From Candidatus Methylomirabilis sp. (GTDB lineage Bacteria > Pseudomonadota > Gammaproteobacteria > Acidiferrobacterales > Sulfurifustaceae): 64,000 bases of DNA. Below the pieces are notes generated by a model. The model saw nothing but the letters and a program-made list of their open reading frames with translations, ran no database searches and was not told the DNA's origin. The translations under genes and the position numbers were made by a program. Shown piece after piece: positions 1-12,828 of this stretch; the first letter of the stretch is position 1, and each line of letters starts with the position of its first letter. The stretch covers positions 185-64,184 of the forward strand of contig DASPRK010000231.1 of NCBI GenBank assembly GCA_035624495.1. The letters are read 5' to 3'.

Positions 1-33
1 GCCTTGATGAAGCAGTATCAGAAGACGAAGTAA
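1..33 (+). CDS. 3' end of an upstream gene (partial, ...ALMKQYQKTK*)
   Basis: Open frame from base 1 to TAA at 31-33, 40 bp before the porin start; too short to identify. Confidence 0.45.
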   Translation, partial: ALMKQYQKTK

Positions 34-73
34 TTTCGAATAACTCAATACCAACACGCAGGGGGAGACGATC

Positions 74-1267
74 ATGTCGAACCAACGGAGGAACATCCCG
101 CATTTCCCGATTCGCGCTGGGCTGTTGACTGCATTTCTGGCGGCCTTGACTCCCACCGCAGCGCTGGCCGGACCCACGATCACTTTCGGCGACCAGGGGT
201 TCGTCACGTTCAGTTACGAAGCCCAGATATGGACGCAATATCGCGGCTACACCTCGGCGACCAACGACGCCAGTTACTACGACACTTTCCTGCGCCGCAG
301 CCGACTGGTCTTCGGCGGGCAGTACAACGACTACGTGGGTTTCTATGCCTCACTGGAGACCACCAACGACAACAAGCTGGGCAACGCCGACAAGGCGCTC
401 TATTACCGCGATGCCTACGTCACGATCGATTACACGGATGGTGTGCGATTCATCGGCGGCCGATTCAAGAACGCCTTCTCGCGCGAGAACCTCGAGGCGT
501 GTTTCGAGCCGCTGACGATCGACCGCGCTGAGGTCATTGCCTACACGCCCTTCGGCGCGAACGGCGGCGGCTCGCGCGACGATGGGTGGGCCATGTGGGG
601 AAATCTCGCCAACGGAAAATTCCAGTACCGCGTGATGGTCGCGGACGGCCGCCAGGGCGATGAGGTGGCCAAGTCCACCCCGCGGCTGACGGCCCGCGTG
701 CACTGGTCGCTGCTTGATCCCGAAACCGACTACGGCTATCTCGGCACCTACCTCGGCACGCGCAAGGTGCTGACGTTCGGGCTCGCCTACGACTACCAGG
801 CCGATGTCGCCTTCGCCAACTTCCCGGCGCGTACCGATTCCGTGGACTACAAGGCCTGGACGGCCGACGTGTTCTACGAGTATCCGACGAAGACCGGCAC
901 CTACACTTTCTCGTCGGCCTATTTCAATTACGACACACAGAATGCAGTCAACGCCAATCCCGACCCCGACTTCCCGGTGACCGCCCAGCTCAAGGCCTAC
1001 TACGTCAAGGGCGGCTATCTCCTGCCAAGAAAGGTCGGGATCGGCCGCCTGCAGCCGTATTTCCGCTTCGAGAAGTCGGACTATGGGGTCAATACCGGTC
1101 TTTTCGACCAGACCTGGAAGGGCGCGGGTTTCAACTACTACTTCGACGGCCAGAACCTCAAGCTCACCTTCGAGTTCGCGAAAATCGAATTCGACAAGCA
1201 GGACCCGACGAACGCCTCGTTGCGCGACTACAATCAGGCGACTGCCGGTTTTCAGCTTATTTTCTAG
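74..1267 (+). CDS. extI: Outer-membrane porin, ExtI-like (selenite/tellurite reduction operon porin family)
   Basis: Signal peptide ending ALA-GP and a C-terminal aromatic strand (FQLIF). Motifs GPTITFG, FSRENLEACFEPLTIDR, LLDPETDYGYLGTYLG..KVLT and DYKAWT..YEYP match the Geobacter ExtI family as recalled. RBS GGGGAG. Confidence 0.8.
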   Translation: MSNQRRNIPHFPIRAGLLTAFLAALTPTAALAGPTITFGDQGFVTFSYEAQIWTQYRGYTSATNDASYYDTFLRRSRLVFGGQYNDYVGFYASLETTNDNKLGNADKALYYRDAYVTIDYTDGVRFIGGRFKNAFSRENLEACFEPLTIDRAEVIAYTPFGANGGGSRDDGWAMWGNLANGKFQYRVMVADGRQGDEVAKSTPRLTARVHWSLLDPETDYGYLGTYLGTRKVLTFGLAYDYQADVAFANFPARTDSVDYKAWTADVFYEYPTKTGTYTFSSAYFNYDTQNAVNANPDPDFPVTAQLKAYYVKGGYLLPRKVGIGRLQPYFRFEKSDYGVNTGLFDQTWKGAGFNYYFDGQNLKLTFEFAKIEFDKQDPTNASLRDYNQATAGFQLIF

Positions 1268-1299
1268 CTGCGCGGTGATGGCCGGCGCCGACGTCGTTG

Positions 1300-1320
1300 G
1301 CGCGGGTTTCTCGCCCGCGC
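1300..1320 (+). terminator. GC-rich hairpin after the porin gene (no U-tract; may be a stabilising stem)
   Basis: GCGCGGG-TTTCTCG-CCCGCGC. Confidence 0.35.
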
Positions 1321-1329
1321 GGTCCGGGT

Positions 1330-1355
1330 GTATGATCAATACTTGGTTGTCATAC
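1330..1355. promoter_or_regulatory. Inverted-repeat operator candidate GTATGA-N14-TCATAC
   Basis: Perfect 6-bp arms in an AT-richer intergenic stretch upstream of the kinase gene. Confidence 0.4.
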
Positions 1356-1474
1356 GTTAAGCCTTCATGCGCCTGAGCTTTCTCAGTAATTCGAGTAGGG
1401 AAGCGATAGCGATCAAACCGGAAGCGCTGACGGGTGGAATCTGGTCGGTGCCCCACGTGGGGCGATTTTCGGCC

Positions 1475-2902
1475 ATGCGGTGGAAATGGGCCTTCGCCAT
1501 CATGCTTTCACTGGCGGGGGCCGTGGCTGTGTATTACACCCTTGCGCGCGGTACTGCCTGGCAATTCCATCTCGGTATCCTGCTCGCCGGCTTGCTTGTC
1601 GCTGCGCTCGCCGCCCTGTTTTATGTGCATCTCCTGTATCGCAAGGTGCTGCGCGCGATGCGCGACGGCATCCTGCGTGCCCAGGAGGGCAGGCTGGGTC
1701 CGGTTCCCGTTTCCCGGTTCCCTGATCGCTTTCTGCATCGCCTCGTGGCGGACCACAATCTCCTGATGTCGAGCCTCGGCGCCACCTTCGCCGAAATGGA
1801 GGAATGCCAGAACCAGGTCATCGGGGAACGTAACCGCAACGAGGCGATCCTGCGCAGTCTGCCGGGGGCGCTGGTTTGCGTCGATGGAGACCTGCGGATA
1901 AATCTCTCCAATCACGAAGCCGAAAACCTCTTCGGCGTTTCGTACGATGTCCTGCTCGGTCAGAACCTGTTCGACTTGTTCGCGCTCGATGAATCGAGCC
2001 GTGAAATTCTGCGCGACGCTTTCCTGTACGAGCGGCCGATCGTCAACAAGGAAATTCTCCTGCACATCGGTGGCGAAGCGCGCTACTTCGCGCTGAACCT
2101 ATCATTCTTTCGATCGGACAACTTCAACGAAACCGGCGCCGTCGTCAGCATATTGGATATCTCAGACTACAAGCATCTGCAGGAACATATCTACACGATG
2201 GAGAAGCTCGCGGCGATGGGACAGCTCGCGGCGGGAGTGGCGCACGAACTCAACACCCCGCTCGGCAACATCATCGGTTACGCCCAGCTGATAGACGACG
2301 CGCGCAGGGGCACGGACCCGGTCGAGCGATATACGCGGATCATTTCGCAAGAGGCGCGGCGGTGCGCGCGCATCGTCGACGATCTATTGAACTATGCGCG
2401 CCGCGATCATTGCCAGATTGAAACCTGCGAGCTGAACGGCGTCGTCAAGGACGTGGTCGACACCATCATCTTTTGCCAGGGCAAGCGCTACGAGGTCGAC
2501 GTCTCGTTCGATCCGGGACCGGAACTCGCGGTCAAGGCATCGTCGGGACAGGTCGACATCGTGCTGGTGAATCTTCTGCTGAACGCGATTCAGGCCACGG
2601 CCGGCGGCCCGAGTCCGCGCGTGGCGGTAAGCGTCCGGGCCCAGGGGGAACACCAGGCCGTCGTGGTCGTGGAGGATAACGGACCCGGCGTGGCACCCGA
2701 GCTGCGCCGACGCATCTTCGATCCCTTTTTCACCACGAAAGAAGTGGGCGAGGGCACCGGATTGGGTCTCGCGATCAGCCAGTCGATCGTAACCAAGCTT
2801 GGAGGCAAAATACAATGTGATTCCGCGTTCCAGGGCGGCGCGCGGTTCGTGCTCGCTTTGCCCCTGGCGCAACCAACGGAGGCGACGAGTCGTGGCAGCT
2901 GA
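1475..2902 (+). CDS. Membrane sensor histidine kinase (2 TM, HAMP-like, PAS, HisKA, HATPase)
   Basis: H-box AGVAHELNTPL, N-box NLLLNAIQA, G-boxes DNGPG / FDPFFTTK / GTGLGL. Start chosen at ATG 1475; the ORF is open from 1367. Confidence 0.95.
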   Translation: MRWKWAFAIMLSLAGAVAVYYTLARGTAWQFHLGILLAGLLVAALAALFYVHLLYRKVLRAMRDGILRAQEGRLGPVPVSRFPDRFLHRLVADHNLLMSSLGATFAEMEECQNQVIGERNRNEAILRSLPGALVCVDGDLRINLSNHEAENLFGVSYDVLLGQNLFDLFALDESSREILRDAFLYERPIVNKEILLHIGGEARYFALNLSFFRSDNFNETGAVVSILDISDYKHLQEHIYTMEKLAAMGQLAAGVAHELNTPLGNIIGYAQLIDDARRGTDPVERYTRIISQEARRCARIVDDLLNYARRDHCQIETCELNGVVKDVVDTIIFCQGKRYEVDVSFDPGPELAVKASSGQVDIVLVNLLLNAIQATAGGPSPRVAVSVRAQGEHQAVVVVEDNGPGVAPELRRRIFDPFFTTKEVGEGTGLGLAISQSIVTKLGGKIQCDSAFQGGARFVLALPLAQPTEATSRGS

Positions 2903-4295
2903 GATCCGGGAATCGACGCTCGACAAGCGTCCTGACGAACGACCCATCATCCTCCTGGTCGAGGACGACGCCAACATGCGCGAGCTCGTGGCGAACATAC
3001 TCGCGCCGTTGCCGGCCAGCGTGATCAGCGCCAAGAGCGCGCAGGATGCCCTGGCGATACTCGAGGACACCGAAGTCGCGGTGGTCGTGACCGACCTGCG
3101 CATGCCGGGCGTTGATGGGATGGAGGTGCTCCGGTTCGCGAAACGGTGCACTCCATCCACCATGGTGGTGTTGATTACAGGTTACGCGACGGTGGAGTCG
3201 GCCGTCGAAGCCCTCAAGAACGGCGCCTATGAATATCTGCGCAAGCCCTTCGAATCCGACGAGCTGCGTCGCATCGTCGAACGGGCGCTGGAACATTATC
3301 TGCTTTCGCGGGAAAACCTCCGGCTGCGGGTCGCCAACCGGATTTACTATGAAGAAGGGTATGGCCTGATCGGCCGTACCGCGGCCATGGAGAACGTTCG
3401 TCGCCTGATCGATGCCTCGACGGCCTACGATTGCTGTGTGCTGATCACCGGCGAGAGCGGCAGCGGCAAGGAACTGGTCGCGCGTCAGATCCACTCACAG
3501 AGCCGCCGCAAGGAAAATCGCTTCATCGCGATCAACTGTGCGGCGATCCCGGAAAACATCATCGAGAGCGAGTTGTTCGGTTATCAGAAGGGTGCCTTCA
3601 CCGGGGCCGACCGCAACAAGCCTGGACTGTTCGAAACGGCGCACGGCGGGACATTGTTTCTCGATGAAATCAACAATGCGCCGCCAACGCTGCAAGCGAA
3701 GCTGCTGCGTGTGCTGCAGGACGGGAGCTTCTACCGGCTGGGAGACACCGAACCGCGCGTGACTGACGCGCGCGTGCTGGTCGCCAGCAACCGTAAACTG
3801 CCCGAGCTGATCGAGCGCGGATTATTCCGCGAGGACCTCTACTATCGGCTCAAGGTGATCGAAATCAGCGTGCCGCCGCTGCGCGAGCGACGGGACGATA
3901 TCCCGATGCTGACGAATTACTTCGTCAACCGGATCACGACCCAACTGGGAAAGAAGGTAACGGGAGTGACGACGCCGGTCTTGCAGGCGTTCATGCGGTA
4001 CGAGTGGCCGGGCAACGTGCGCGAACTCGAGAACCTCATCAAACGCATGATTATCCTGACGGAGACCGACATGCTCGACGTGGATGTGCTCCCGCCGGAG
4101 CTGTCGAAGGCTCCGGAGGGGCTGAGCCGGGCACTCGATCACCTGGCGCCGCAGAGCCTCGAGGAGATCGAGGCCTACTTCATCGCCAAGACGTTGCGCG
4201 AAACCAAGGGCAACCGTGGGCTCGCCGCCGAAATCCTCGGCATCGACAAGTCCACCCTGTGGCGCAAGATCAAGCGCTACCGGCTGGATGAGTGA
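2892..4295 (+). CDS. Sigma54-dependent response regulator (NtrC/AtoC-type: REC, AAA+, Fis HTH)
   Basis: LLVEDD, VVTDLRMP, GESGSGKE, ESELFGYQKGAFTGA, WPGNVRELEN, DKSTLWRKIK. GTG start overlaps the kinase end. Confidence 0.96.
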   Translation: MAAEIRESTLDKRPDERPIILLVEDDANMRELVANILAPLPASVISAKSAQDALAILEDTEVAVVVTDLRMPGVDGMEVLRFAKRCTPSTMVVLITGYATVESAVEALKNGAYEYLRKPFESDELRRIVERALEHYLLSRENLRLRVANRIYYEEGYGLIGRTAAMENVRRLIDASTAYDCCVLITGESGSGKELVARQIHSQSRRKENRFIAINCAAIPENIIESELFGYQKGAFTGADRNKPGLFETAHGGTLFLDEINNAPPTLQAKLLRVLQDGSFYRLGDTEPRVTDARVLVASNRKLPELIERGLFREDLYYRLKVIEISVPPLRERRDDIPMLTNYFVNRITTQLGKKVTGVTTPVLQAFMRYEWPGNVRELENLIKRMIILTETDMLDVDVLPPELSKAPEGLSRALDHLAPQSLEEIEAYFIAKTLRETKGNRGLAAEILGIDKSTLWRKIKRYRLDE

Positions 4296-4704
4296 AGCCG
4301 CGCCGATGCGGCGACCGGAGCAACGGTGGCGGCTCATTGCGGCGGTTCTTCTCTGGCTGTCGACGACGGCCTGGGCGGGCGGCGGAGTGGCGGCGGAAAG
4401 CACGTGGATCGAGCACGCCGAGGGGCTGGTGGCGGCCGCCAAGGGTCATGCCGATGTCGCGCAGTTCCGGCAGGACGTGGAGACGCAACGCGAACGGCTG
4501 CGCGAGATTGTCCGCCAGGAAGGTCCGCAGCCGACGCCCGAGCGGCGGCAGTTGCATGTCTCGATGATCCTGCTCAACGCGCTGCTCAAGTCCGCCTCCG
4601 ATTGCCATCAGGGAGGGCGGGTCGTATGTCCCGCCCAGCTGCTCCGGCAACTGGACGAGCAGGTCAACGTGGTGCAGGGGCAGCTCAGGGCGGTACAAGG
4701 TTAA
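4288..4704 (+). CDS. Hypothetical secreted helical protein
   Basis: ATG overlaps the regulator stop. Signal-peptide-like LIAAVLLWLSTTAWA; C-X7-C pair (DCHQGGRVVCP). Confidence 0.7.
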   Translation: MSEAAPMRRPEQRWRLIAAVLLWLSTTAWAGGGVAAESTWIEHAEGLVAAAKGHADVAQFRQDVETQRERLREIVRQEGPQPTPERRQLHVSMILLNALLKSASDCHQGGRVVCPAQLLRQLDEQVNVVQGQLRAVQG

Positions 4705-4731
4705 CGGCGAACGCCGCGCGAAGGAGGAGCA

Positions 4732-5844
4732 ATGAGCAATGCACTCGTGCAGATGGCATCCGTTTCCGCCGGCATCGTGCTCGAAGCCGGTTTCTGGATC
4801 GTGATCAGCCTCCTCGCCGGTGGCATGATCCACGAGTTCCTGCCGACCGCGCGCCTACGTGCCGCCATGCACCGGTCAGGGGTGTTCGGCGTGCTCGGCG
4901 CGGTGGGTCTGGGCGCGCTGTTGCCGATCTGCAGCTGCGGCGTGATTCCCCTTGCGGTGAGCTTTTACCTGAGCGGGGTGCGCCTCGCGGCCGTGATGGC
5001 CTTTGCGGTCGCGACCCCCGTGATCAATCCCGCGGCCGTTATTCTGTCCTACGCGTTGCTCGGGCCGCAGCTGACGCTGGCGTACGTGGTCTTCGGTCTG
5101 GTGGCCCCGTTTCTGATCGGATATTTCGTCGAGCAAGGCAGCGGGGCGCGCATGACTCCGGTCGCCGCGCGCCTCGAACCGTGCTGTGCCTCGGGCGCGG
5201 GCAGTACAGCGCAACCGGCCCGCACGTCGGTTGCGCAACGGTTCTGGCGCGCGTTGCGCTGGGGCTTCGGCGAGCTTGGTCCCACGCTCGGGCTCTACAT
5301 CGGTGCCGGCGCGGCCCTCGCCGGGGTGCTCGCTGCAGCGCTGCCGTCGGACTGGATCAGCCACTACCTCGGAGCATCGGCGCCATTCACCTCGCTGCTA
5401 ATTGTGGCGCTCTTCGGCGCGAGTCTCTATGTGTGCGCCGTGGCCCATATCCCGCTCGTCGCCGCGTTGCTCGCCGCCGGAGCCGGTCCCGGCGCCGCGA
5501 TTGTCTTCCTGGTGACCGGCGCTGCCACCAACCTTCCGGAGTTCATCGCGCTCCAGCGGGTGTTTGGCACGCGCGCCGTGCTTCTGTATGTCGGCGGGCT
5601 CGTCGGCTTATCGCTGCTTGCCGGGACGTTCGTCAACGTTTGGCTCGCCGGGTATCGGCCGCTCGTGGATCCCATACGCAGTCTGGATTGGAGCGATCTC
5701 GCCGCGCGGCTGACTCCGGTGATCCCGGAACCGGTTGCTGTCGCGAGCGCGTTGGCCGTCACCGGGCTGATCGCCTGGGGATTCGCGAGATGGCTCTGGC
5801 GGATTCCAAGCCGACTCAAGACGGTACACTCGCCTGGCGGCTAG
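4732..5844 (+). CDS. DUF318/ArsP-family permease (SaoE-like)
   Basis: LLPICSCGVIPL, ATPVINP, YVCAVAHIP, GAATNLPE; central loop PCC; multiple TM segments; RBS AGGAGG. Confidence 0.88.
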   Translation: MSNALVQMASVSAGIVLEAGFWIVISLLAGGMIHEFLPTARLRAAMHRSGVFGVLGAVGLGALLPICSCGVIPLAVSFYLSGVRLAAVMAFAVATPVINPAAVILSYALLGPQLTLAYVVFGLVAPFLIGYFVEQGSGARMTPVAARLEPCCASGAGSTAQPARTSVAQRFWRALRWGFGELGPTLGLYIGAGAALAGVLAAALPSDWISHYLGASAPFTSLLIVALFGASLYVCAVAHIPLVAALLAAGAGPGAAIVFLVTGAATNLPEFIALQRVFGTRAVLLYVGGLVGLSLLAGTFVNVWLAGYRPLVDPIRSLDWSDLAARLTPVIPEPVAVASALAVTGLIAWGFARWLWRIPSRLKTVHSPGG

Positions 5845-6550
5845 CCCGAGCGCTTAAAAAGCAGTTCCATCGAATCACTGAACAGCGTCATCTGTTTGCC
5901 CGGTATGCCCGCAAGGCAACGCGCTGCATGCGCGTCAACGTATCGCCGCGTTCTCGTGTCATGCATGTAACATCTCGCGCTGGGTGACGAGGCATCGAAT
6001 GCAAGGGATGTCGATTTCGAAAATGCGGCGGCGGAACGGCGACCGGGGACGAGATACCGGATCGCGCAGCGGGTATGAAGCGGTATCGGTACTGGATTGT
6101 CGTCAAATGCAACTACAGGCCGGTTACACTTCATGCGGTTGACTTTGAGCTTAAAATGGCGGAGAAGGCGTGTACTAGGTACTCCGCTCATACGACCGGT
6201 TTTGAGTTTGTACAGGTGACGCTGGATGCATCGTTGCGCCAGCGGGAGAAGAACTGAGTGCTCGACTAATCCCATGAAAAAAGTGTCTTGTGCAGAACCT
6301 GATGCCAGCGTGGAACGACAAAATTCGGGTGTTCGCAGGAGCGCGATCTCCGGACCTGCCAGACCTTTCTGATGTTGGCGTGCGCCGCCCGGCCACCGGC
6401 AACCCAATTGGCGGGCATGGACATGCGGGGCCGATCGCCGTCCGGCGGCCGCCGCCCAGCGGCCGGGAGCTGATGCGAACAAAGAGCCACGGCGTGGATT
6501 TATTGCAAAAAACAATTCTGGAGCTATGCATGATCGTGACATTGCGATTT

Positions 6551-6580
6551 ATCACGCGATTCGGTGAGCAATCGCGTGAT
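6551..6580. promoter_or_regulatory. Perfect 11-bp inverted repeat upstream of the sigma54 promoter
   Basis: ATCACGCGATT-N8-AATCGCGTGAT, ending 40 bp before the -24 GG. Confidence 0.5.
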
Positions 6581-6618
6581 CCACGGCCAAAATCCCGTGA
6601 AAATAACATTCTGGCATC

Positions 6619-6635
6619 CAGGCATGATATTTGCT
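6619..6635 (+). promoter_or_regulatory. Sigma54 (-24/-12) promoter
   Basis: CAGGCATGATATTTGCT: GG at 6621-22, exactly 10 nt, GC at 6633-34. It lies about 55 bp before the TusA-like gene, with a sigma54 activator gene 2.3 kb upstream. Confidence 0.75.
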
Positions 6636-6688
6636 GTCTGTCTCGAAACCATGGCCGATAGGCGATCAACAGGAACGGAGCGCAGGTG

Positions 6689-7120
6689 ATGATTAAGGAT
6701 CTGACGATCAGGAAATCCGGCTTTTTGGCCATTCTTGAGCCCGGCGGTTTCGCCGAGTTTCTGGGTCTGCGGACGCCGGAGCCGTGCGACCGGATAATCG
6801 GGGTCAAGGAGGAGTGGGTCGAGATATCCGGTTACGGCTGCCTGTATGTCACCCTGTCCTTGAATTTTCTCGGCGATACGTGTCTCCGAACCAATCTGTT
6901 GACGAAGCGGGCACTCGCTGAGGCAGCGGATAGGGATGTCATCGAGATCATCACCGACAACCTCAGCTCCGTCGAGACCATTCCTTTCATGTCACCGAAC
7001 TATAGCGGTGTGCACCTCGCCACCTGCCAGGACGCGCAGTGCTGGAGGATTTACGTGCAGAAGAACGCGGCCACCATCCACGAGTCGAAGGAGACGCGAG
7101 ATGGGACACGTGACGAATAA
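6689..7120 (+). CDS. TusA/SirA-like domain protein with N-terminal extension
   Basis: C-terminal LNFLGDTCLRTNLLTKRAL...VIEIITDN.SSVETIP...WRIYVQK has the TusA pattern with a degenerate CPxP motif. Confidence 0.75.
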   Translation: MIKDLTIRKSGFLAILEPGGFAEFLGLRTPEPCDRIIGVKEEWVEISGYGCLYVTLSLNFLGDTCLRTNLLTKRALAEAADRDVIEIITDNLSSVETIPFMSPNYSGVHLATCQDAQCWRIYVQKNAATIHESKETRDGTRDE

Positions 7121-8564
7121 CTCGATTCCGGTGCAGGCGGTCGAGACTACGGCGGACGAAGGCCACAATATCCTGCGCGCGTACCTGGTACTCGGATTCT
7201 TCGTCGCGGTGTCGCTGTGGACATTTTCGGTCGACACGCGCTACGTCTACCTCTCCGCTTACCTGTGGTTCGGTTTCATCTACGGCATGGCCCTGCAGTA
7301 CGGCCGCTTCTGCATGGCGTCGGCGATCCGCGACTTGTTCGCGGTCGGGGTGCCGCGCATGGCCGTCGGTATCATGATCGCGATCGTGCTTTTCAGCCTG
7401 GTATCGGCGTACGTCACGGCCGTCGGCAAGAGCACCTTCGGCGCCTCGCCGATCGGTCTCTACTCCGTAATCGGCGGCCTCGTATTCGGCGTCGGCATGG
7501 TGTTTACCGGCGGCTGCGCGTCGGGATCGCTCTATAAGACCGGTGAAGGCAGCATCGCGGCGCTGTTGGTAGTCTTGTCTCTCGCTTTTACGCAGGCGAT
7601 TTTCGTCGATGTGGGCGGATGGCTAAATCACCTCGTTCCGGCAGCGTGGACGGCTTCAGCAGCCGCCAAGAACCTGCCGGCGGCGCTGACGCCGACGGAC
7701 GGCTGGTTCGACCAATTTACCGCCGGCTATATTTGGAATCTGCACGCCAGCACCGTCGGCGAGCTGATCCACTTCTCAAATCCGTTCGCCGCGGCGTTCG
7801 TCGGCAACGCCCTGGTCAACTCCTTCCTGCCGGCGATCGTCATTCTGGCACTGATTTACGTACGCTGGTACCGCAAGAGCTATCTGCGCGACAAATCGGC
7901 CGTCTACCGCGGCTGGCGCACCGAACTCGCCGGTTACTGGAGCATGATTACGGCCTCGAGGCGCACCGCCATCGCCGGTCTGATCCTGGGCGTGGCCGCC
8001 GGGCTGCACATGTGGGTGATGCAGGGGCTGCAGCAGCACTTCGGAATCCTCAACGTCGGCGAACTGCTCAAGGCCATGGGCCATACGAGCGGTCTCAGTA
8101 TCCAGGACACGGTTTTCGACCCGGGCTACTTTTACATCACCACGCAGGAAGCGCAGGGCGCGGGATGGATCCTTCAGAAGCTCGGTGTCAACGAGATGAG
8201 CAATATCTTCTTTGGGCTCGACAACGGCCTGCCGAATCCGATTCTCAACCCGGTATTGTGGATGTCGTTTGCGCTCATCGGCGGCTCGGCCGTCATGGCA
8301 CTCCTCAATAACGAGTTCAAACTCAAGTGGCCATCCGCGGAGATTGCCACGTGGGCGGTGTTCGGGGGCATCCTCATGGGGCTCGGCGCGCGTATCGGGC
8401 TCGGCTGCAACATCGGCGCGTTTTTCGCGACGGTCACCAACGGCGATCCTTCCGGCTGGCTGTTCGGCTTGGGGATGACGGTGGGCGGCTTCATCGGCGT
8501 GAAATTCTTCAATTGGTGGATCGAGCGCAGAATGGCTAAAGAAGTCGTGGGGCTCGAGCTTTGA
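7101..8564 (+). CDS. YeeE/YedE (TsuA-like) sulfur-compound transporter
   Basis: Family Cys motifs GRFCMAS, GGCASG and GLGCNIG; many TM helices; RBS AAGGAG. Confidence 0.92.
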   Translation: MGHVTNNSIPVQAVETTADEGHNILRAYLVLGFFVAVSLWTFSVDTRYVYLSAYLWFGFIYGMALQYGRFCMASAIRDLFAVGVPRMAVGIMIAIVLFSLVSAYVTAVGKSTFGASPIGLYSVIGGLVFGVGMVFTGGCASGSLYKTGEGSIAALLVVLSLAFTQAIFVDVGGWLNHLVPAAWTASAAAKNLPAALTPTDGWFDQFTAGYIWNLHASTVGELIHFSNPFAAAFVGNALVNSFLPAIVILALIYVRWYRKSYLRDKSAVYRGWRTELAGYWSMITASRRTAIAGLILGVAAGLHMWVMQGLQQHFGILNVGELLKAMGHTSGLSIQDTVFDPGYFYITTQEAQGAGWILQKLGVNEMSNIFFGLDNGLPNPILNPVLWMSFALIGGSAVMALLNNEFKLKWPSAEIATWAVFGGILMGLGARIGLGCNIGAFFATVTNGDPSGWLFGLGMTVGGFIGVKFFNWWIERRMAKEVVGLEL

Positions 8565-8607
8565 CGGTATCCGGAACGAATCAGGCGATCGCAGGGGAAG
8601 GTAACTC

Positions 8608-8862
8608 ATGGCAGTAAAATTCGAGAAGGTTAGTGACGGCAGGTACATGCTCGATGTTCAGGGCTACGTTTGTCCGCATCCGCAGTTGTACACCAAGAAG
8701 GCCATGGAAAAGCTGAAACAGGGCGAGGTCTTGGAACTGGTGTTCGACAACCCTTCCTCCGGCGAGTCCATCCTCGCCATGTGCCAGACGGACGGCAACG
8801 AGATCATCGAGCAGGTGCGTCAGAACGGCAACGCCATGCGCTGGCGCATTCGCAAGGGTTGA
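8608..8862 (+). CDS. TusA/YeeD-family sulfur carrier
   Basis: LDVQGYVCPHPQLYTKKAM..L..GEVLELVFDNPSS (CPxP motif); directly after YeeE. Confidence 0.92.
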   Translation: MAVKFEKVSDGRYMLDVQGYVCPHPQLYTKKAMEKLKQGEVLELVFDNPSSGESILAMCQTDGNEIIEQVRQNGNAMRWRIRKG

Positions 8863-8886
8863 GAACCGATCTCGAATGGTGGATGC

Positions 8887-9018
8887 ATGAAAACTAGCTT
8901 GTGGATCGTCATCGTGGTGGTGGTGTTCTTCGTCGGATTCCTGGTCGGTTATACCTTCTGTCCGGGGGGGCAAGGGGCGCCCGCCGGTACGCCGGCGGCC
9001 ACCGATAAGGCGCGGTGA
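8887..9018 (+). CDS. 43-aa single-TM peptide (not in the ORF track)
   Basis: ATG 8887 gives MKTSLWIVIVVVVFFVGFLVGYTFCPGGQGAPAGTPAATDKAR, then TGA; fills the operon gap between TusA and DsrE-like genes. Confidence 0.65.
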   Translation: MKTSLWIVIVVVVFFVGFLVGYTFCPGGQGAPAGTPAATDKAR

Positions 9019-9050
9019 GAATCGGTTCTCCCGACGGAAAATAAACAATC

Positions 9051-9347
9051 ATGCATCTGGGAATCGTGGCGACGAGTGAATCGGCCGAAGACCATGTGGT
9101 TGGTCTGGCGCGCGCGGCCGTCGCACGCGGATGGCAGTGCCGATGTTTCCTGACCGACACCGGTGTGAAGCTGCTGCACTCGGCTCGCCTGCTTGAGCTC
9201 GCACGCACCGGAAAGCTGCGGGTCGACGCTTGCGAGCACAGCTGGCACATCCATGGCAGCGGTACCGCTCCGGAGGGCGCGGTGATGACGGGCCAGATCA
9301 AGAATGCCGAACTGGCCCATGAGTGCGACAAGGTCATCGTGCTCTAG
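9051..9347 (+). CDS. DsrE-like protein (short)
   Basis: CFLTDTGV, conserved DACEHS cysteine, C-terminal CDKVIVL. Confidence 0.8.
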   Translation: MHLGIVATSESAEDHVVGLARAAVARGWQCRCFLTDTGVKLLHSARLLELARTGKLRVDACEHSWHIHGSGTAPEGAVMTGQIKNAELAHECDKVIVL

Positions 9348-9353
9348 CCCGAG

Positions 9354-9608
9354 ATGAAGAAAAACATCCTCGTTATCGCCAAACACAACAAGGTCGAGGC
9401 GCTGCGGGTGGCCGCCGGCCTCACGTTGATGAACGATCTGGTGAAGGTCGCGGTACTCGGCGCACTTGATGATTCTCCCGCGGTGCGGGAGCAGCTTGAG
9501 GCCCTGGACTTCGGGGAAGTGCCGTACGAGGTGTTCGACGACTCCACTCCGGTGACCGAGGCCCTGGCGCGAAACCTGTTCAGCGCCGACGTGGTGTACG
9601 TAATATGA
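9354..9608 (+). CDS. DsrF/DsrE-fold-like small protein
   Basis: KNILVI..EALRVAAGL..VKVAVLG..ADVVYVI pattern; follows the DsrE-like gene; no Cys. Confidence 0.6.
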   Translation: MKKNILVIAKHNKVEALRVAAGLTLMNDLVKVAVLGALDDSPAVREQLEALDFGEVPYEVFDDSTPVTEALARNLFSADVVYVI

Positions 9609-9787
9609 ATGCGACCCGGCACATTCTTATTCTCTACATCGGTAGCGACATGCCCGCCGGACTGATGGAGATGGCCACCATGCTGGGACGCCTCGGGGCG
9701 ATCGTGAATGTACGGATGTGCGGCGGGCGCTACGATGAGATTCTCGACGTCGTGGCGGCCGCCGATACCGTGATCTGCTGGCGCTGA
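9605..9787 (+). CDS. DsrH-like small protein (60 aa)
   Basis: ATGA overlap with the previous gene; ends YDEILDVVAAADTVICW, like DsrH/TusB C-termini. Confidence 0.55.
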   Translation: MNATRHILILYIGSDMPAGLMEMATMLGRLGAIVNVRMCGGRYDEILDVVAAADTVICWR

Positions 9788-10082
9788 GCGGCGTTTCCGG
9801 GAAAATTATACACGCCGTCCGAAAAAGCGATGAGCGGCGCGGCTGCGCCGATTTCAGGCGGGTTCCCCTATCGCCGGTAAATTCGGTCTTGGGCCGTTTC
9901 ATGGCATCGTGGTACGTACGGGTCGACGCGAAATAATTGGGGTGTCCAGGGACTCCCCCTCTCCACCAGCACGATATCGGCCCTGGCAGACGGGTCCGCA
10001 CACGCGAACACTTTCACGTCAGTTTCCCGCGCATGATACTCACGGGCTCCGATATGTACAGTGTTCGGATCGATACCGCGTT

Positions 10083-10096
10083 CTGACCTGCGTCAA
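10083..10096. promoter_or_regulatory. Possible FNR/CRP-family box
   Basis: CTGAC-CTGC-GTCAA (consensus TTGAT-N4-ATCAA), about 70 bp upstream of ATG 10168. Confidence 0.3.
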
Positions 10097-10167
10097 AGAC
10101 ACACGCCGCCACTATGCATATCTTGCACATAATATTGGCGTGCGCGCTATCTCATGCGGAGGGAGTC

Positions 10168-10353
10168 ATGACACCGACCAAACCCGGAGTCGGGCCGCAT
10201 TCGCCGGTGAAGGAACCGAAGTTCTGCCGCTGCCGTCTGTGTCACGAACATTTCTACGGCGAGACCATTGCGCAGGCGCGCGCGTCCTGCGTGGAACACG
10301 CCAGGCGCCGCCATCCCGACTGGCATGTGACCGCGTGTTTCTGTCCCGACTGA
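10168..10353 (+). CDS. Small Cys/His-rich putative metal-binding protein (DUF1059-like)
   Basis: RBS GGAGGGAG; CRCRLCHEHFYGET...CVEHARRRHPD...CFCPD. Confidence 0.6.
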   Translation: MTPTKPGVGPHSPVKEPKFCRCRLCHEHFYGETIAQARASCVEHARRRHPDWHVTACFCPD

Positions 10354-10404
10354 CGCGCCGTATGTTCCCGTCGTGGACAGCCATCGCGTCCCCGGAGGTG
10401 CGAC

Positions 10405-11052
10405 ATGCCGCTTCGAGCTTGGACAGGAGTGTTGCTGATGATCATGACCACTACGACAATCGCCCGGGAAACGCAGTCCTTGCCGCTGCCGCCGCCGCAG
10501 ACTGACGGCGGCAAACCGCTGATGCGGGCACTCAAGGAACGGCATTCCACCCGCGAGTTCAGCTACGAGGCGTTGCCGCCGCAGGTGCTGTCGAACCTGC
10601 TGTGGGCCGCGGCCGGCGTGAACCGGCCGGCGTCGGGTCAGCGCACCGTCCCGTCGGCGCGTGACTGGCGCGAGATCGACGTGTACGTCGCGACGGCGGA
10701 CGGCATGTACCGGTATGATGCCAAGGTGCATGCGTTGCGACTGCTCGTCGCACGCGACCTGCGCGCGCTCACGGGCGTGCAGGAATTCGTTGCGGTGGCG
10801 CCGGTCAACCTGGTCTACGTCGCTGATTTCGACCTCATGGAGGGCGCCGCCGCCGATCAGAAGGAATTCTACGCGGCGACCGATGCCGGTTTCATCGCGC
10901 AGAACGTTTACCTTTACTGCGCCTCCGCGAACCTCGCCACCGTGGTGCGTGGATCGGTCGACCGCGAAGCACTCGCCAAAGCCATGGGCCTGGCGCCGCA
11001 CCTGCGGATTATTCTGGCCCAGACCGTGGGTTATCCCGCCAGGGAGCAGTAA
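10405..11052 (+). CDS. Nitroreductase family (SagB/ThcOx-like) protein
   Basis: LPLPPP..DGG..L..ALKERHSTREF, LLWAAAG, RTVPSA, GFIAQNVYL, QTVGYP; RBS GGAGG. Confidence 0.92.
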   Translation: MPLRAWTGVLLMIMTTTTIARETQSLPLPPPQTDGGKPLMRALKERHSTREFSYEALPPQVLSNLLWAAAGVNRPASGQRTVPSARDWREIDVYVATADGMYRYDAKVHALRLLVARDLRALTGVQEFVAVAPVNLVYVADFDLMEGAAADQKEFYAATDAGFIAQNVYLYCASANLATVVRGSVDREALAKAMGLAPHLRIILAQTVGYPAREQ

Positions 11053-11255
11053 ACTGACCGGAACAGCTGCGTTCCAATGCCCTGGACCCGTTCAGTTCAC
11101 GCCAGTGTCGAGGCGGCGCATGTGAGCTGCGTTCATTCCTGCCGTGTTGCTGTTTCCGCTCCCGCTGGTGGCCGTTTTCTTCGCCGGACTCAGAATAACG
11201 AGCGAATGCTATGCTAAAGACAAAGTTCCGGTTGCTATGAAGGAATTCAAAAGCC

Positions 11256-11510
11256 ATGGACTTCGGCAAGACAGTCGACAGCACTATGAAATACTTTCAG
11301 GGCCACCCACTCATGGGCGCCGGTGCTGTCCTGGCCCTGATCGTACTGATCTATCTCAAGCCAAAGGCCGTGTTCAAGCTCGCGGCGGCGGCGATGATCC
11401 TGGTCGCGGTGTTGTACGTGGGTTCGTTTCTGATCGACCTCACGAACACCGGCATTCACGAGCAGGACAAGTCTCTCAGCGACCCCCACCTCAAGCAGCA
11501 GGACCTGTAG
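11256..11510 (+). CDS. Hypothetical small membrane protein
   Basis: 84 aa with two hydrophobic segments; RBS-like AAGGAA; host-like codons. Confidence 0.7.
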   Translation: MDFGKTVDSTMKYFQGHPLMGAGAVLALIVLIYLKPKAVFKLAAAAMILVAVLYVGSFLIDLTNTGIHEQDKSLSDPHLKQQDL

Positions 11511-11603
11511 CAACAGGACGTCGGATCGGATTGCCGGCCGTGATAAAATATGAATAAGGTGCCGGTTTGCGGATCGCGCGAACCTCAGGTCAGGCTATGC
11601 TGA

Positions 11604-12437
11604 ATGATGGACTGTCGAGCGCGCTGCATGGAAAGTCTGAATGACGAATCGCAAGAACTGCTGACCAGGCTTCCGGGCACCGCGAGCCGCCGGCGCGCCG
11701 GCGAGTTGGATGACGCCGTTTTCGCAACACTGTATTTTTTCTACTGGCAGATCGCTCGGCACGGCGCGCGGTTCGCCTCACGCAAGTGCAAGCGTGATCC
11801 TCGCCCGGACATCGGCGCCTGTCTGGCCGACATCGCGAGCACGGACGGTGACACCTTGCGGGGCCTTTTGCTCGCTTGGCTCGATCGATATCAATTTCAC
11901 GGCGTGATCGCCAATGTGCCGGTGGCGCTGGCACAATGGCTGCGCGGCGCCTGGCGCCTCGCGTTGCGCGAAGATATTCCGGACCCGCGCGAGGTACTGC
12001 GCATGCAGGCGCATGGCATGCGTCCCGTGACGGTGCTTACGGCGTGGCCGCGCCTGCGTCAGCCGGTACTGAACAAACCGGATGCGTTCGCGTTTTTCCT
12101 GCACGATCTCGAGCACGCCTACAAGTTTTTTCACTCGCCGGCGCTGCACGCCGGCCAGCTCGCGTTTTTTGCGGCGCTGGACCGTGCCATCGACCGCGGC
12201 GAGTTTGCGTCGTATTTCGGCGATACCGAGTTCTCCGGAAAGTTCCATTACCTGATGAGCGACATGAACACCCACCCGGAGCACAGCCGGCAGTATTTGC
12301 GTGCGATCCTGGTGGAATTTCACCGGCGCCGCGAACGCAAGCGGACAGCCGAAGCACTCAACCAGACGTCGGAGCGCGCCATCACGAATCTGATACGCGT
12401 CGTGGAGATTCCCGCGCTGCTCGCCGTGCGCGCGTGA
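11604..12437 (+). CDS. Hypothetical protein with HDLEH motif
   Basis: 277-aa ORF with protein-like composition (FFLHDLEHAYKFF, YLMSDMNTHP); start uncertain. Confidence 0.7.
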   Translation: MMDCRARCMESLNDESQELLTRLPGTASRRRAGELDDAVFATLYFFYWQIARHGARFASRKCKRDPRPDIGACLADIASTDGDTLRGLLLAWLDRYQFHGVIANVPVALAQWLRGAWRLALREDIPDPREVLRMQAHGMRPVTVLTAWPRLRQPVLNKPDAFAFFLHDLEHAYKFFHSPALHAGQLAFFAALDRAIDRGEFASYFGDTEFSGKFHYLMSDMNTHPEHSRQYLRAILVEFHRRRERKRTAEALNQTSERAITNLIRVVEIPALLAVRA

Positions 12438-12492
12438 ACCACGGTGGGGCGCGCCATGCCCGGCGCGCCCCGACGCGTTCTGCCGACCGGGG

Positions 12493-12828
12493 TTACGAAT
12501 GATCCTCGTCCTCGTCATGGTCCTCGTGTGTGCCGTTGCCGGCGTGGTCGCGATGCGCGTCGTGGTCCTCGGCACGCTTGCCGGGTTCCGCGACTTGGGC
12601 GAACGGTTTCGACGTGGCGGAGTCGTTCCGCCTGAATTTTTCCTGTGCGACCAGGGCGGTATGAACTGGCAGATCGATTCCGAGTCCCGGGGACCATTCG
12701 CGTCATCGGCCCAGTTGTTCCATCAGCCGAACTTGCGCGGCGGCCGGGGATTCGGCGCCATTGGCGGGCGTGGCCAGGGTGATCGTGGTACCGTCGAAGG
12801 CCGCCAGCGATAACAAATTGGATTTCAT
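12493..12828 (-). pseudogene. His/Asp/Glu-tailed protein interrupted by in-frame TGA
   Basis: 41 codons from ATG 12828, TGA at 12705-12703, then 69 more in-frame codons ending EDHDAHRDHAGNGTHEDHDEDEDHS and TAA at 12495-12493. Confidence 0.6.

What the first reader, a model, noticed from the sequence alone, without database searches (positions are those of the whole stretch)
74..9787. Candidate complete S/Se-oxyanion uptake, relay and export locus under its own sigma54 two-component system
Seen: one co-oriented block of ExtI-like porin, kinase, sigma54 activator, secreted protein, DUF318 permease, sigma54 promoter, TusA-like, YeeE, TusA, a small TM peptide and a DsrE/F/H-like trio. Established: YeeE/YeeD import thiosulfate, YedE/YedF-type genes co-occur with selenium utilisation, ExtI belongs to the Geobacter selenite/tellurite reduction operon, and TusA/DsrE proteins carry persulfides. 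Inference: the locus could route a chalcogen oxyanion from outer membrane to inner membrane to a cytoplasmic persulfide relay, with the permease exporting excess or a metal(loid) adduct. There is no ExtKL-type cytochrome conduit here, so it would be a different use of an ExtI-type porin. I know of no description of this combination.
Basis: partly seen in the sequence, partly recalled or inferred. Interest (0 to 1): 0.8.

Follow-up and report, generated by a model that had tools for sequence, protein, structure and literature searches.

The report
Sulfur uptake-relay cluster with cytochromes
This peat sulfur-oxidiser locus joins a known inner-membrane sulfur importer and relay (the YTD cluster) to an outer-membrane porin and periplasmic haem proteins resembling a Geobacter polysulfide-reducing cluster, which suggests how sulfur crosses the whole cell envelope.

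Summary
The locus is not complete, though. The window starts inside a triheme cytochrome gene, and a same-population contig shows a pentaheme cytochrome and a small CxC protein just upstream. The claim of "no ExtKL-type cytochrome" is therefore an edge artefact.

The right half (TusA-like, YeeE, TusA, TM peptide, three small proteins) is the published YTD cluster, yeeE-tusA-dsrEFH type II. The 98-aa protein folds like DsrE and has an invariant Cys.

The left half resembles Geobacter extHIJKL. The porin passes NCBI's ExtI model. The pentaheme cytochrome is a remote relative of MccSep/ExtKL but lacks its catalytic Cys and Sec.

The two halves are adjacent in about 35 further genomes, in three different gene orders. 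A sigma54 promoter with phased upstream boxes precedes the YTD operon in 30 of 32 loci. The ArsP-type permease occurs in only about a third of them.

Best reading: an envelope-spanning system for acquiring and relaying sulfane sulfur or polysulfide, induced through its own two-component system. A selenium role is unsupported. The modules are known; their linkage appears undescribed.

The parts
1..33 (+). 3' end of the membrane-anchored triheme c-type cytochrome gene (cyt3h). The rest of the gene lies off the window. Further upstream are a CxC small secreted protein and a pentaheme cytochrome.
   Evidence: translation is ALMKQYQKTK*, identical to the end of L001 2397-2933..
74..1267 (+). ExtI-type outer-membrane porin (Porin_O_P superfamily).
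   Evidence: NCBIfam NF040900 ExtI, 331 bits (cutoff 150). Found next to the cytochromes in 30 loci.
1367..2902 (+). Sensor histidine kinase. It has two TM helices with almost no periplasmic loop, then PAS, HisKA and HATPase domains. Four invariant Cys (333, 349, 354, 370) lie between the H-box and N-box.
2892..4295 (+). NtrC-type sigma54-dependent response regulator (REC, AAA+ sigma54 activator, Fis HTH).
4288..4704 (+). Secreted 138-aa protein of unknown family. It overlaps the regulator's stop codon and always co-occurs with the permease.
   Evidence: (no family hit).
4732..5844 (+). ArsP_1/DUF318 permease with a CSC motif. An accessory gene, present in about a third of related loci.
   Evidence: ArsP_1, 154.6 bits. 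SaoE 267 bits, below the 325 cutoff..
5845..6486 (.). Lineage-specific spacer with no conserved feature. Gene callers place a 233-aa minus-strand ORF here that has no family hit.
6503..6554 (+). Two phased TTGC[AG] boxes: TTGCAAAAAACAA at 6503, and ATTGCGAT with its TTGCG starting at 6542. These are candidate enhancer sites for the sigma54 activator.
   Evidence: Boxes sit at about -118/-79 in Sulfuricaulis-type loci and -110/-70 in betaproteobacterial loci, relative to the start of the -24/-12 element.
6620..6635 (+). Sigma54 -24/-12 promoter element, AGGCATGATATTTGCT.
   Evidence: It is one of only two matches of this quality in 13 kb on both strands. It is conserved in 30 of 32 orthologous upstream regions.
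6689..7120 (+). TusA-like protein, 143 aa. It has an N-terminal extension and an invariant G..CLRTNL motif in place of CPxP.
   Evidence: (TusA 26.8 bits, just below GA).
7101..8564 (+). Long (487-aa) YeeE/YedE-family sulfur transporter with three invariant Cys (C71, C139, C436).
8608..8862 (+). TusA/YeeD-type sulfur carrier with an invariant CPHP cysteine.
   Evidence: (67.5 bits).
8887..9018 (+). 43-aa single-pass membrane peptide. The N-terminal TM segment is conserved after TusA, even in Nitrospirota and Rokubacteria loci.
9051..9347 (+). DsrE type II-like sulfurtransferase subunit with invariant Cys61 (CEHSW).
   Evidence: alignment; AF2 pLDDT 95.5; best PDB fold match 2hy5_A DsrE, TMq 0.86, E 4e-6.
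9354..9608 (+). 84-aa conserved protein. It occupies the position of the second subunit (chp / DsrF-H type II) of the YTD cluster.
   Evidence: Homologues of 38-44% identity occur in distant YTD loci. There is no sequence-level hit to DsrF/H.
9605..9787 (+). 60-aa conserved protein. It occupies the position of the third subunit of the YTD cluster.
   Evidence: No sequence-level hit.

Best explanation
The locus is one lineage's version of a conserved supercluster in sulfur-oxidising Gamma- and Betaproteobacteria. It couples an Ext-like envelope module to the YTD cytoplasmic sulfur relay.

**Proposed route**
1. A sulfur anion crosses the outer membrane through the ExtI-type porin. The anion is most likely polysulfide or another sulfane-sulfur species derived from S0, with thiosulfate as an alternative.
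2. In the periplasm a membrane-anchored triheme cytochrome and a pentaheme cytochrome exchange electrons with the sulfur substrate. The pair is arranged like NrfH/NrfA. The pentaheme protein has the c552/MccSep architecture.
3. The substrate is probably held on Cys-bearing carriers. Here that is the small CxC protein. In most sister loci it is an ExtH-like rhodanese lipoprotein ending in NPCG(G).
4. The 487-aa YeeE passes sulfur across the inner membrane to TusA.
5. TusA hands it to Cys61 of the DsrE type II subunit, and from there to DsrC and the Dsr pathway.
6. The adjacent kinase has no periplasmic sensor domain and has four invariant Cys. With its NtrC-type regulator it switches on the TusA-like/YeeE/TusA/DsrEFH-II operon from a sigma54 promoter with phased upstream boxes.

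**Shown here:** gene identities, fold of the DsrE-like subunit, remote homology of the pentaheme cytochrome, conserved linkage, conserved promoter architecture.

**Inferred:** the substrate, the direction of electron flow, carrier roles, who activates the promoter, and the link to DsrC.
For: - **Family assignments:**
- **Upstream genes:** upstream cytochromes in the same population.
- **Linkage starting from YeeE:** 32 of 36 genome loci with YeeE at or above 66% identity carry the porin or the cytochromes next to the YTD genes. The exceptions are the four loci with under 3 kb of upstream flank. The arrangement is either co-oriented or divergent.
- **Linkage starting from the cytochrome:** homologues at about 50% identity return the same cluster in a third gene order in three more gammaproteobacterial MAGs.
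- **DsrE-like fold and invariant Cys:**
- **Pentaheme cytochrome:** five invariant CXXCH motifs plus GHxxPTY. Profile hits to T. tepidum c552 at E 4e-8 and to MccSep at E 3e-7, collinear over all haem motifs. The fold hit to 5ze8 has E 1e-9.
- **ExtH-like lipoprotein in sister loci:** NCBIfam ExtH 108 bits, E 4e-31. A C-terminal NPCG(G) is present in 24 of 24 complete sequences.
- **CxC protein:** found in all 18 cytochrome-bearing loci inspected.
- **Promoter:** sigma54 element in 30 of 32 loci, and none upstream of the other genes. Phased boxes.
- **Literature:** the YTD cluster equals yeeE-tusA-dsrEFH type II, with sulfur transfer TusA to DsrE-Cys67 to DsrC shown in vitro (PMC13293266). ExtKL equals the periplasmic polysulfide reductase MccSep (PMC13510729). 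The outer-membrane route for YTD systems is stated to be unknown (PMC13490349).
Against: - There is no experimental data for this clade. All carriers found are MAGs.
- The pentaheme cytochrome lacks both catalytic residues of MccSep, so a polysulfide-reductase activity cannot be transferred by homology.
- The 84-aa and 60-aa proteins have no detectable similarity to DsrF/H.
- dsrAB and dsrC are not in the window, and their presence in this genome was not tested.
- This lineage lacks the ExtH-like lipoprotein.
- No sigma54 element was found upstream of the cytochrome/porin genes, so the two halves may be regulated differently.
- Peat metatranscriptome contigs cover the kinase-to-permease stretch but barely touch the YTD operon. 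That shows only low in situ expression.
Confidence: 0.6

Rival explanations
1. Selenium or tellurium oxyanion handling. The porin admits selenite or tellurite, the cytochromes reduce it, and a YedE/YedF-like pair imports selenium for use or detoxification.
For: ExtI is implicated in selenite uptake and reduction in Geobacter (PMC5877670). MccSep also reduces selenite (PMC13510729). The best NCBIfam hits of YeeE and TusA are the YedE/FdhT and YedF models.
Against: Those hits are far below cutoff: 131 against 350 bits, and 54 against 79 bits. The cytochrome lacks Sec and the catalytic Cys. The DsrE type II relay is characterised as a sulfur transferase (PMC13293266). The carriers belong to sulfur-oxidiser lineages. 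No selD, selA or selB gene is in the window's annotated part.
Confidence: 0.08
2. The cytochromes and porin form an extracellular electron-transfer conduit, for example for Fe(II) oxidation or metal reduction. On this view they sit beside the sulfur relay without a shared function.
For: extHIJKL was first described as a putative outer-membrane conduit (PMC6148476). Several carriers are labelled Gallionella or Rubrivivax.
Against: There is no outer-surface cytochrome. The porin is a roughly 400-aa Porin_O_P-type anion channel. Adjacency to YTD is kept through three rearrangements. Sister loci carry a rhodanese lipoprotein with a Cys tail. ExtKL itself is now known to be a periplasmic polysulfide reductase (PMC13510729).
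Confidence: 0.07
3. The YeeE/TusA pair acts mainly as a signalling input, as SoxT1B does. It would report external sulfur to the Cys-rich kinase rather than carry bulk sulfur for oxidation.
For: SoxT1B of Hyphomicrobium is a YeeE-type signal transducer (PMC11582611). The kinase has no periplasmic domain and has four invariant Cys. Two TusA paralogues flank YeeE.
Against: The operon also encodes the DsrE type II relay, which is a mass-flow component (PMC13293266). The YTD genes lie downstream of the sigma54 promoter, so they are an output of the system, not only an input.
Confidence: 0.12
4. The kinase, regulator, secreted protein and permease form a separate metal(loid) efflux unit. On this view the unit is unrelated to sulfur, and the permease exports Cu/Zn or an organo-metalloid.
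For: The permease's nearest curated families are the SaoE and SO_0444 efflux transporters, and it keeps the CSC motif (10.1101/2022.07.06.499078). These four genes are closely packed or overlapping. All four are covered by exact-match RNA contigs.
Against: The kinase and regulator stay with the cluster in most loci that lack the permease. The only sigma54 promoter found lies in front of the YTD operon. The permease scores below the SaoE cutoff and has none of the SaoP/A/B/X partners that SaoE always accompanies.
Confidence: 0.1

Closest known systems
[quoted passage not shown]
   Same: The order is YeeE, TusA, DsrE-like, then two small conserved proteins. TusA has the CPxP cysteine. The DsrE-like subunit has the DsrE fold and one invariant active-site-type Cys (Cys61 here, Cys67 in Electronema). 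No sequence tool recognises the small subunits, as that paper reports.
   Different: This locus has an extra TusA-like gene upstream, a 43-aa TM peptide after TusA and a 487-aa YeeE. The host is a sulfur-oxidising gammaproteobacterium, not a sulfate reducer or disproportionator. The cluster is physically linked to a porin, multiheme cytochromes and a sigma54 two-component system. That paper mentions none of these (no occurrence of 'cytochrome' or 'porin').
Geobacter sulfurreducens extHIJKL cluster, including MccSep (PMC6148476, PMC5877670, PMC13510729)
   Same: Both have an ExtI-type porin (above the NCBIfam equivalog cutoff), a periplasmic pentaheme cytochrome of the same architecture, and a small periplasmic protein. 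Most sister loci also have an ExtH-like rhodanese lipoprotein.
   Different: The pentaheme protein lacks Sec325 and the haem-ligating Cys239, and scores 33-49 bits against a 250-bit cutoff. A membrane-anchored triheme cytochrome is added. This lineage has no ExtH. Regulation is by a sigma54 two-component system, not LysR. The cluster is coupled to a cytoplasmic import and relay module.
Thermochromatium tepidum low-potential pentaheme cytochrome c552 (PDB 5ze8)
   Same: It is the best sequence-profile match (E 4e-8) and the best fold match (E 1e-9, TM about 0.5). It has five haems plus an Ig-like domain, and it comes from a sulfur oxidiser.
   Different: Identity is only about 19%. The function of c552 is itself unknown. 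Its gene context was not examined here.
E. coli TsuA/TsuB (YeeE/YeeD) thiosulfate uptake, and Hyphomicrobium SoxT1A/B
   Same: All are YeeE-family membrane proteins with three conserved Cys, partnered with a TusA-like cytoplasmic protein.
   Different: This YeeE is about 130 residues longer and scores well below the TsuA cutoffs. Its context is dissimilatory and it is under sigma54 control.
NrfH/NrfA-type quinol:periplasmic-substrate reductase modules
   Same: A small membrane-anchored multiheme cytochrome is encoded beside a soluble pentaheme cytochrome. There are weak NrfH and NapC/NirT hits.
   Different: The small cytochrome has three haems, not four. No CXXCK catalytic haem is present. 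The similarity is weak and is offered only as an architectural analogy.

Membership tests
YTD cluster / yeeE-tusA-dsrEFH type II | YeeE/YedE-family transporter gene | tested here: met
   Pfam Sulf_transp 127.8 bits (GA 27). Three invariant Cys.
YTD cluster / yeeE-tusA-dsrEFH type II | Adjacent TusA with the conserved sulfur-binding cysteine | tested here: met
   Pfam TusA 67.5 bits. Invariant VCPHPQ in 40 orthologues.
YTD cluster / yeeE-tusA-dsrEFH type II | DsrE-like subunit with the DsrE fold and one conserved active Cys | tested here: met
   AF2 pLDDT 95.5. Top PDB fold hit 2hy5_A DsrE, TMq 0.86. Invariant C61.
YTD cluster / yeeE-tusA-dsrEFH type II | Two further small subunits (DsrF/DsrH type II) that form a heterotrimer with DsrE | tested here: inconclusive
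   Two conserved small ORFs sit in the expected position. No sequence or profile similarity to each other or to PDB DsrF/H. A complex prediction was not possible.
YTD cluster / yeeE-tusA-dsrEFH type II | Co-occurrence with dsrAB and dsrC in the genome | not testable with these tools
   Only 64 kb of the genome is available. The rest of the window is the dcw cluster, secA and argJ.
Geobacter extHIJKL cluster | ExtI porin | tested here: met
   NF040900, 331 bits against a cutoff of 150. 357 bits in L088.
Geobacter extHIJKL cluster | ExtH rhodanese-family lipoprotein | tested here: not met
   No homologue in the window or L001. Sister loci have one at 99-108 bits, below the 200 cutoff.
Geobacter extHIJKL cluster | ExtKL pentaheme (seleno)protein | tested here: not met
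   NF040886 scores 32.6 bits (L001) and 48.5 bits (L088) against a cutoff of 250. The protein is a remote relative only.
MccSep polysulfide reductase family | Five conserved haem c motifs | tested here: met
   Five invariant CXXCH in 16 and in 35 sequences. Collinear with MccSep.
MccSep polysulfide reductase family | Conserved Sec/Cys at the U325 position and haem-ligating Cys239 | tested here: not met
   By residue counting from the aligned GHxxP motif, GHSIPDGU lines up with GHYFPTYV, putting a V/I/L column at the U325 position. The CC of MccSep aligns to the segment 'llentyee' in the family consensus. No extra conserved Cys anywhere.
SaoE efflux transporter (SAO system) | Score above the NCBIfam cutoff, and presence of SaoP/A/B/X partners | tested here: not met
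   267 bits against a cutoff of 325. No ABC transporter genes in the locus. The CSC motif is present.
Sigma54-dependent promoter with bacterial enhancer-binding protein | GG-N10-GC element matching TGGCAC-N5-TTGCW in front of the operon, and an activator gene nearby | tested here: met
   10 of 12 consensus positions at 6620-6635. Conserved in 30 of 32 loci. Phased upstream boxes. Activator gene at 2892-4295. The transcription start and rpoN dependence are not testable here.
YedE/YedF selenium metabolism proteins | Score above the NCBIfam cutoffs | tested here: not met
   YedE/FdhT 130.8 bits against 350. YedF 54.2 bits against 79.
TsuA/TsuB thiosulfate uptake | Score above the NCBIfam cutoffs | tested here: not met
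   TsuA 69.5-90.6 bits against cutoffs of 645 and 400. TsuB 31.8 bits against 147.5.

The most novel reading that the evidence does not exclude
The Ext-like module and the YTD relay together form one previously unrecognised pathway that spans the whole envelope. The Ext-like module comprises the porin, the CxC protein, an NrfH-like triheme cytochrome, a Sec-free MccSep-like pentaheme cytochrome and, in many genomes, a rhodanese lipoprotein with a SoxY-like C-terminal Cys arm. Chemolithotrophic Gamma- and Betaproteobacteria would use this pathway to mobilise external S0 or polysulfide. Sulfur would be processed by redox chemistry in the periplasm on protein-bound cysteines. It would then be imported as sulfane sulfur for Dsr-dependent oxidation. 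The whole system would be switched on by a thiol-based cytoplasmic sensor kinase through sigma54.
Probability: 0.35. Interest if true: 0.75.

Novelty: new variant of a known kind. Interest (0 to 1): 0.6.

Why it matters
How reduced sulfur crosses the outer membrane and periplasm to reach YeeE-type importers is an acknowledged gap. It is stated explicitly for YTD-carrying organisms (PMC13490349) and for MccSep (PMC13510729).

This locus and its roughly 35 relatives put a candidate outer-membrane channel, periplasmic redox proteins and Cys-bearing carriers next to the importer and relay. That yields a concrete, testable gene set.

It also defines two further things:
- A large family of pentaheme cytochromes related to MccSep but lacking Sec and Cys: more than 3,000 database proteins, all unnamed.
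- A conserved sigma54 promoter and enhancer architecture for a dissimilatory sulfur operon. Regulation of such operons has so far been tied mainly to ArsR-type repressors.

Tried and rejected
- **Rfam:** a scan of 1-13000 at E up to 1 found nothing.
- **Sigma70 promoters and terminators:** not above the shuffled expectation.
- **Paralogy of the three small proteins:** profile-profile comparison gave no support.
- **PDB sequence-profile searches:** nothing meaningful for the 98-, 84- and 60-aa families. Only the fold search identified DsrE.
- **Structure prediction from locus-derived alignment A3:** It was repeated with database homologues (A6).
- **The 840-bp gap (5845-6685):** only the last 200 bp or so is conserved, which is the promoter region. 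The 233-aa minus-strand ORF called there has no family hit and no homologue outside this population, so it is treated as doubtful.
- **Sigma54 elements upstream of the cytochrome, porin, kinase and permease genes:** none at the same stringency.
- **RNA evidence:** only sparse peat metatranscriptome contigs, which cannot define operons or transcript starts.
- **SAO-system membership of the permease:** rejected, because the score is below cutoff and the partner genes are missing.
- **Sequence-level search for relatives of the porin in the PDB:** none found.

Full report
**What is in the window.** ORF listing and family scans confirm a co-oriented block on the + strand.
- Porin, 74-1267. It passes NCBI's ExtI equivalog model: 331 bits against a cutoff of 150.
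- PAS/HisKA/HATPase kinase, 1367-2902.
- NtrC-type sigma54 activator, 2892-4295.
- Secreted 138-aa protein with no family, 4288-4704.
- ArsP_1/DUF318 permease, 4732-5844. Its nearest curated family is SaoE, at 267 bits, below the 325 cutoff.
- An 840-bp gap.
- TusA-like 143-aa protein, 6689-7120.
- YeeE-family protein of 487 aa, 7101-8564.
- Canonical TusA, 8608-8862.
- 43-aa membrane peptide, 8887-9018.
- Three small ORFs: 9051-9347, 9354-9608 and 9605-9787.

Rfam finds nothing in the region. The rest of the window carries the dcw cell-division cluster, secA and argJ, so this is core chromosome. The closest named relatives are Sulfuricaulis MAGs, with YeeE at 91% identity. The DNA occurs in peat metagenomes.

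**The locus is cut by the window edge.** Contig L001 differs from the window at 24 of 18,564 positions and extends 2.9 kb further left. It encodes three proteins directly upstream of the porin:
- a 419-aa cytochrome with five CXXCH motifs;
- a 107-aa secreted protein with a CTCEC motif;
- a 178-aa protein with an N-terminal anchor and three CXXCH motifs.

Window bases 1-33 are the last ten codons of the triheme gene.

[quoted passage not shown] A 2026 study reinterpreted it as yeeE-tusA-dsrEFH type II (PMC13293266). That study showed sulfur transfer in vitro from TusA to DsrE-Cys67 to DsrC. It also noted that sequence tools do not recognise the subunits.

The same holds here. The 98-aa protein has no significant Pfam, NCBIfam or PDB sequence hit. 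Its AlphaFold model has pLDDT 95.5. The best PDB fold match of that model is chain A (DsrE) of A. vinosum DsrEFH, 2hy5, with TMq 0.86 and E 4e-6. Cys61, in the motif CEHSW, is invariant in 33 homologues.

The 84-aa and 60-aa proteins are conserved and sit in the right positions. I could not show that they are DsrF/H-like. TusA keeps an invariant VCPHPQ motif. The upstream TusA-like protein keeps an invariant Cys in the motif G..CLRTNL. YeeE keeps three invariant Cys.

**The left half resembles Geobacter extHIJKL.** That cluster encodes the rhodanese lipoprotein ExtH, the porin ExtI, the small periplasmic ExtJ and the pentaheme ExtKL (PMC6148476). ExtKL is now known to be MccSep, a periplasmic selenoprotein. 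MccSep reduces polysulfide and, less efficiently, selenite. It uses a haem-ligating Cys239 and Sec325 (PMC13510729).

A profile of 16 orthologues of the pentaheme cytochrome found here gives two PDB hits:
- T. tepidum pentaheme c552 (5ze8) at E 4e-8;
- MccSep (9wt8) at E 3e-7, collinear across the haem motifs and the GHxxP motif.

The fold search returns 5ze8 at E 1e-9. However, this family has no Cys or Sec at either catalytic position of MccSep, and no other conserved Cys. It scores only 33-49 bits against the 250-bit ExtKL cutoff. It is a remote relative, not a member. The family is large, with more than 3,000 database proteins, and is unnamed.

**The two halves are linked across genomes.** A scan of one genome per species with a YeeE alignment found 494 genomes with a relative, and I examined the best 80 loci. 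There are 36 loci with YeeE at or above 66% identity. They are labelled Sulfuricaulis, Muproteobacteria, Acidiferrobacteraceae, Gallionella, Sterolibacterium, Rubrivivax, Usitatibacter and other Burkholderiales.

In 32 of those 36, the porin or the cytochromes lie within 10 kb of the YTD genes. The four exceptions are the loci with under 3 kb of upstream flank. Three gene orders occur:
- In Sulfuricaulis-type loci the order matches the window.
- In betaproteobacteria the cytochrome-porin-kinase-regulator operon is divergent from the YTD operon.
- Starting independently from cytochrome homologues at about 50% identity gave a third order in three more gammaproteobacterial MAGs, two of them labelled Ectothiorhodospiraceae and Thiohalomonadaceae. 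Here the YTD genes come first, followed by the cytochromes, porin, kinase and regulator.

More distant loci (57-63% identity; Rokubacteria, Nitrospirota, Desulfobacterota and others) keep only the YTD core, with the DsrE-like genes upstream and no porin or cytochromes. The permease and the 138-aa protein are accessory: they occur in 11 of the 36 loci.

**Variable periplasmic parts.** Most betaproteobacterial and the three extra gammaproteobacterial loci carry a 440-490-aa lipoprotein. Its best NCBIfam match is ExtH: 99-108 bits, E 4e-31, full length, below the 200 cutoff. All 24 complete sequences end in a Gly/Ser-rich linker followed by NPCG(G). From my own knowledge, this resembles the GGCGG carrier arm of SoxY.

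A second set of loci instead has a 660-aa lipoprotein ending in CNPCGGC, together with the permease and the 138-aa protein. The window's lineage has neither lipoprotein.

A small secreted protein with the motif RL(K/R)F(K/R)..GP.C.C...SE.DI lies between the two cytochrome genes in every locus inspected. The triheme cytochrome is membrane-anchored and gives weak NrfH and NapC/NirT hits. This suggests an NrfH/NrfA-like link to the quinone pool, which is an inference.

**Regulation.** A sigma54 -24/-12 element sits at 6620-6635. Only two matches of this quality occur in 13 kb on both strands. An equivalent element lies 8-72 nt upstream of the TusA-like gene in 30 of 32 loci. None is found upstream of the cytochrome, porin, kinase, 138-aa or permease genes.

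TTGC[AG] boxes, typically TTGCA-N6-YCAA, recur at fixed distances from the start of the -24/-12 element:
- about -110 and -70 in betaproteobacteria, often with a second pair at -190 and -153;
- about -118 and -79 in the Sulfuricaulis group, which corresponds to window 6503 and 6542.

This is the layout expected for enhancer-binding-protein sites. Within the 840-bp gap, only this promoter region, roughly 200 bp, is conserved.

The kinase has two TM helices with almost no periplasmic loop. It has four Cys between the H-box and N-box that are invariant in 20 orthologues. It therefore probably senses a cytoplasmic or membrane signal.

Exact-match peat metatranscriptome contigs cover the kinase-to-permease stretch, but only one fragment of YeeE. 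This is weak evidence. It is compatible with a constitutively expressed sensor operon and an uninduced sigma54 operon.

**Interpretation.** The most economical model is an envelope-spanning system that acquires and relays sulfur. The steps are porin entry, periplasmic redox handling on Cys-bearing carriers by the two cytochromes, YeeE import, then TusA and DsrE type II relay towards DsrC. The YTD operon would be induced through the adjacent sigma54 two-component system.

- Shown here: gene identities, the DsrE fold, remote homology of the cytochrome, conserved linkage, promoter conservation.
- Inferred: the substrate (polysulfide or S0-derived sulfane sulfur is favoured, by analogy with MccSep and the YTD proposals), the direction of electron flow, carrier roles, and the regulator-promoter pairing.

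A selenium role has no positive support. An extracellular electron conduit is unlikely, given the porin type and the missing surface cytochrome.

**Novelty.** Both modules are published. No paper in the searchable library contains ExtH together with YeeE. The four-term search for YeeE, TusA, multiheme and porin returned only sulfur-cycling genome and proteome papers, none of which describes this linkage. The dsrEFH type II paper mentions neither cytochromes nor porins. The MccSep paper mentions neither YeeE nor TusA. A 2026 proteomics paper states that the outer-membrane route for YTD organisms is still unidentified. I therefore rate this a new variant of a known kind. It is of moderate to high interest because it turns an open question into a defined gene set.

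Noticed in passing
L088 8383-9846; L019 7789-9108 (minus strand); about 24 sister loci: ExtH-like rhodanese lipoproteins next to the pentaheme cytochrome all end in a Gly/Ser-rich linker plus NPCG(G) at the extreme C-terminus. An alternative 660-aa lipoprotein in five complete loci ends in CNPCGGC. This looks like a SoxY-style Cys carrier arm. Both lipoproteins are absent from the window's lineage.
   Followed up: partly
L001 1984-2307, just left of the window; equivalents in all 18 cytochrome-bearing loci inspected: A small secreted protein lies between the two cytochrome genes. It has the conserved motif RL(K/R)F(K/R)..GP.C.C...SE.DI. tblastn missed it in most loci, and it was found by inspecting ORFs. 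It may be a counterpart of ExtJ.
   Followed up: partly
window 2363-2476 (kinase codons 333-370): Four cysteines between the H-box and N-box of the histidine kinase are invariant in 20 of 20 orthologues. A fifth, at residue 484, is conserved in 18 of 20. This may be a thiol, persulfide or metal sensing site.
   Followed up: partly
window 5845-6486: The first 640 bp or so of the long intergenic gap has no similarity even to the closest Sulfuricaulis MAGs. Its G+C is lower (0.56-0.61). Gene callers place a 233-aa minus-strand ORF here with no family hit.
   Followed up: partly
window 1355-1747: RNA contigs from three independent peat metatranscriptomes begin at 1355-1368 and give the highest depth in the region. 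This could mark a transcript 5' end between the porin and the kinase. Contigs cannot prove that.
   Followed up: no
window 8887-9018; L040 11731-12057; L045 11750-12004: The single-pass membrane peptide after TusA is conserved across phyla. In Nitrospirota and Rokubacteria it carries a long Gly/Ala-rich tail. The papers read here list five YTD genes and do not mention it.
   Followed up: partly
L040, L045, L046, L058, L068 (distant YTD loci): Outside the proteobacterial clade, the YTD core is flanked by a 560-600-aa PMT_2-type membrane protein between the DsrE-like genes and YeeE. Downstream lie a universal stress protein, an amine-oxidase-like flavoprotein and a large protein that looks radical-SAM-like by eye. 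The PMT_2 and flavoprotein assignments were checked with Pfam for L040 only.
   Followed up: partly
window 38630-61635: The dcw cluster (PBP3, Mur ligases, FtsW, FtsA, FtsZ) is followed by secA and argJ. This is ordinary chromosomal core and shows that the sulfur locus is not on a mobile element.
   Followed up: yes
P0241; L009: The identical pentaheme protein is deposited under a 'Candidatus Methylomirabilis' MAG. A 92%-identical YeeE locus is deposited under a 'Bacteroidota' MAG. Both are probably binning errors.
   Followed up: no
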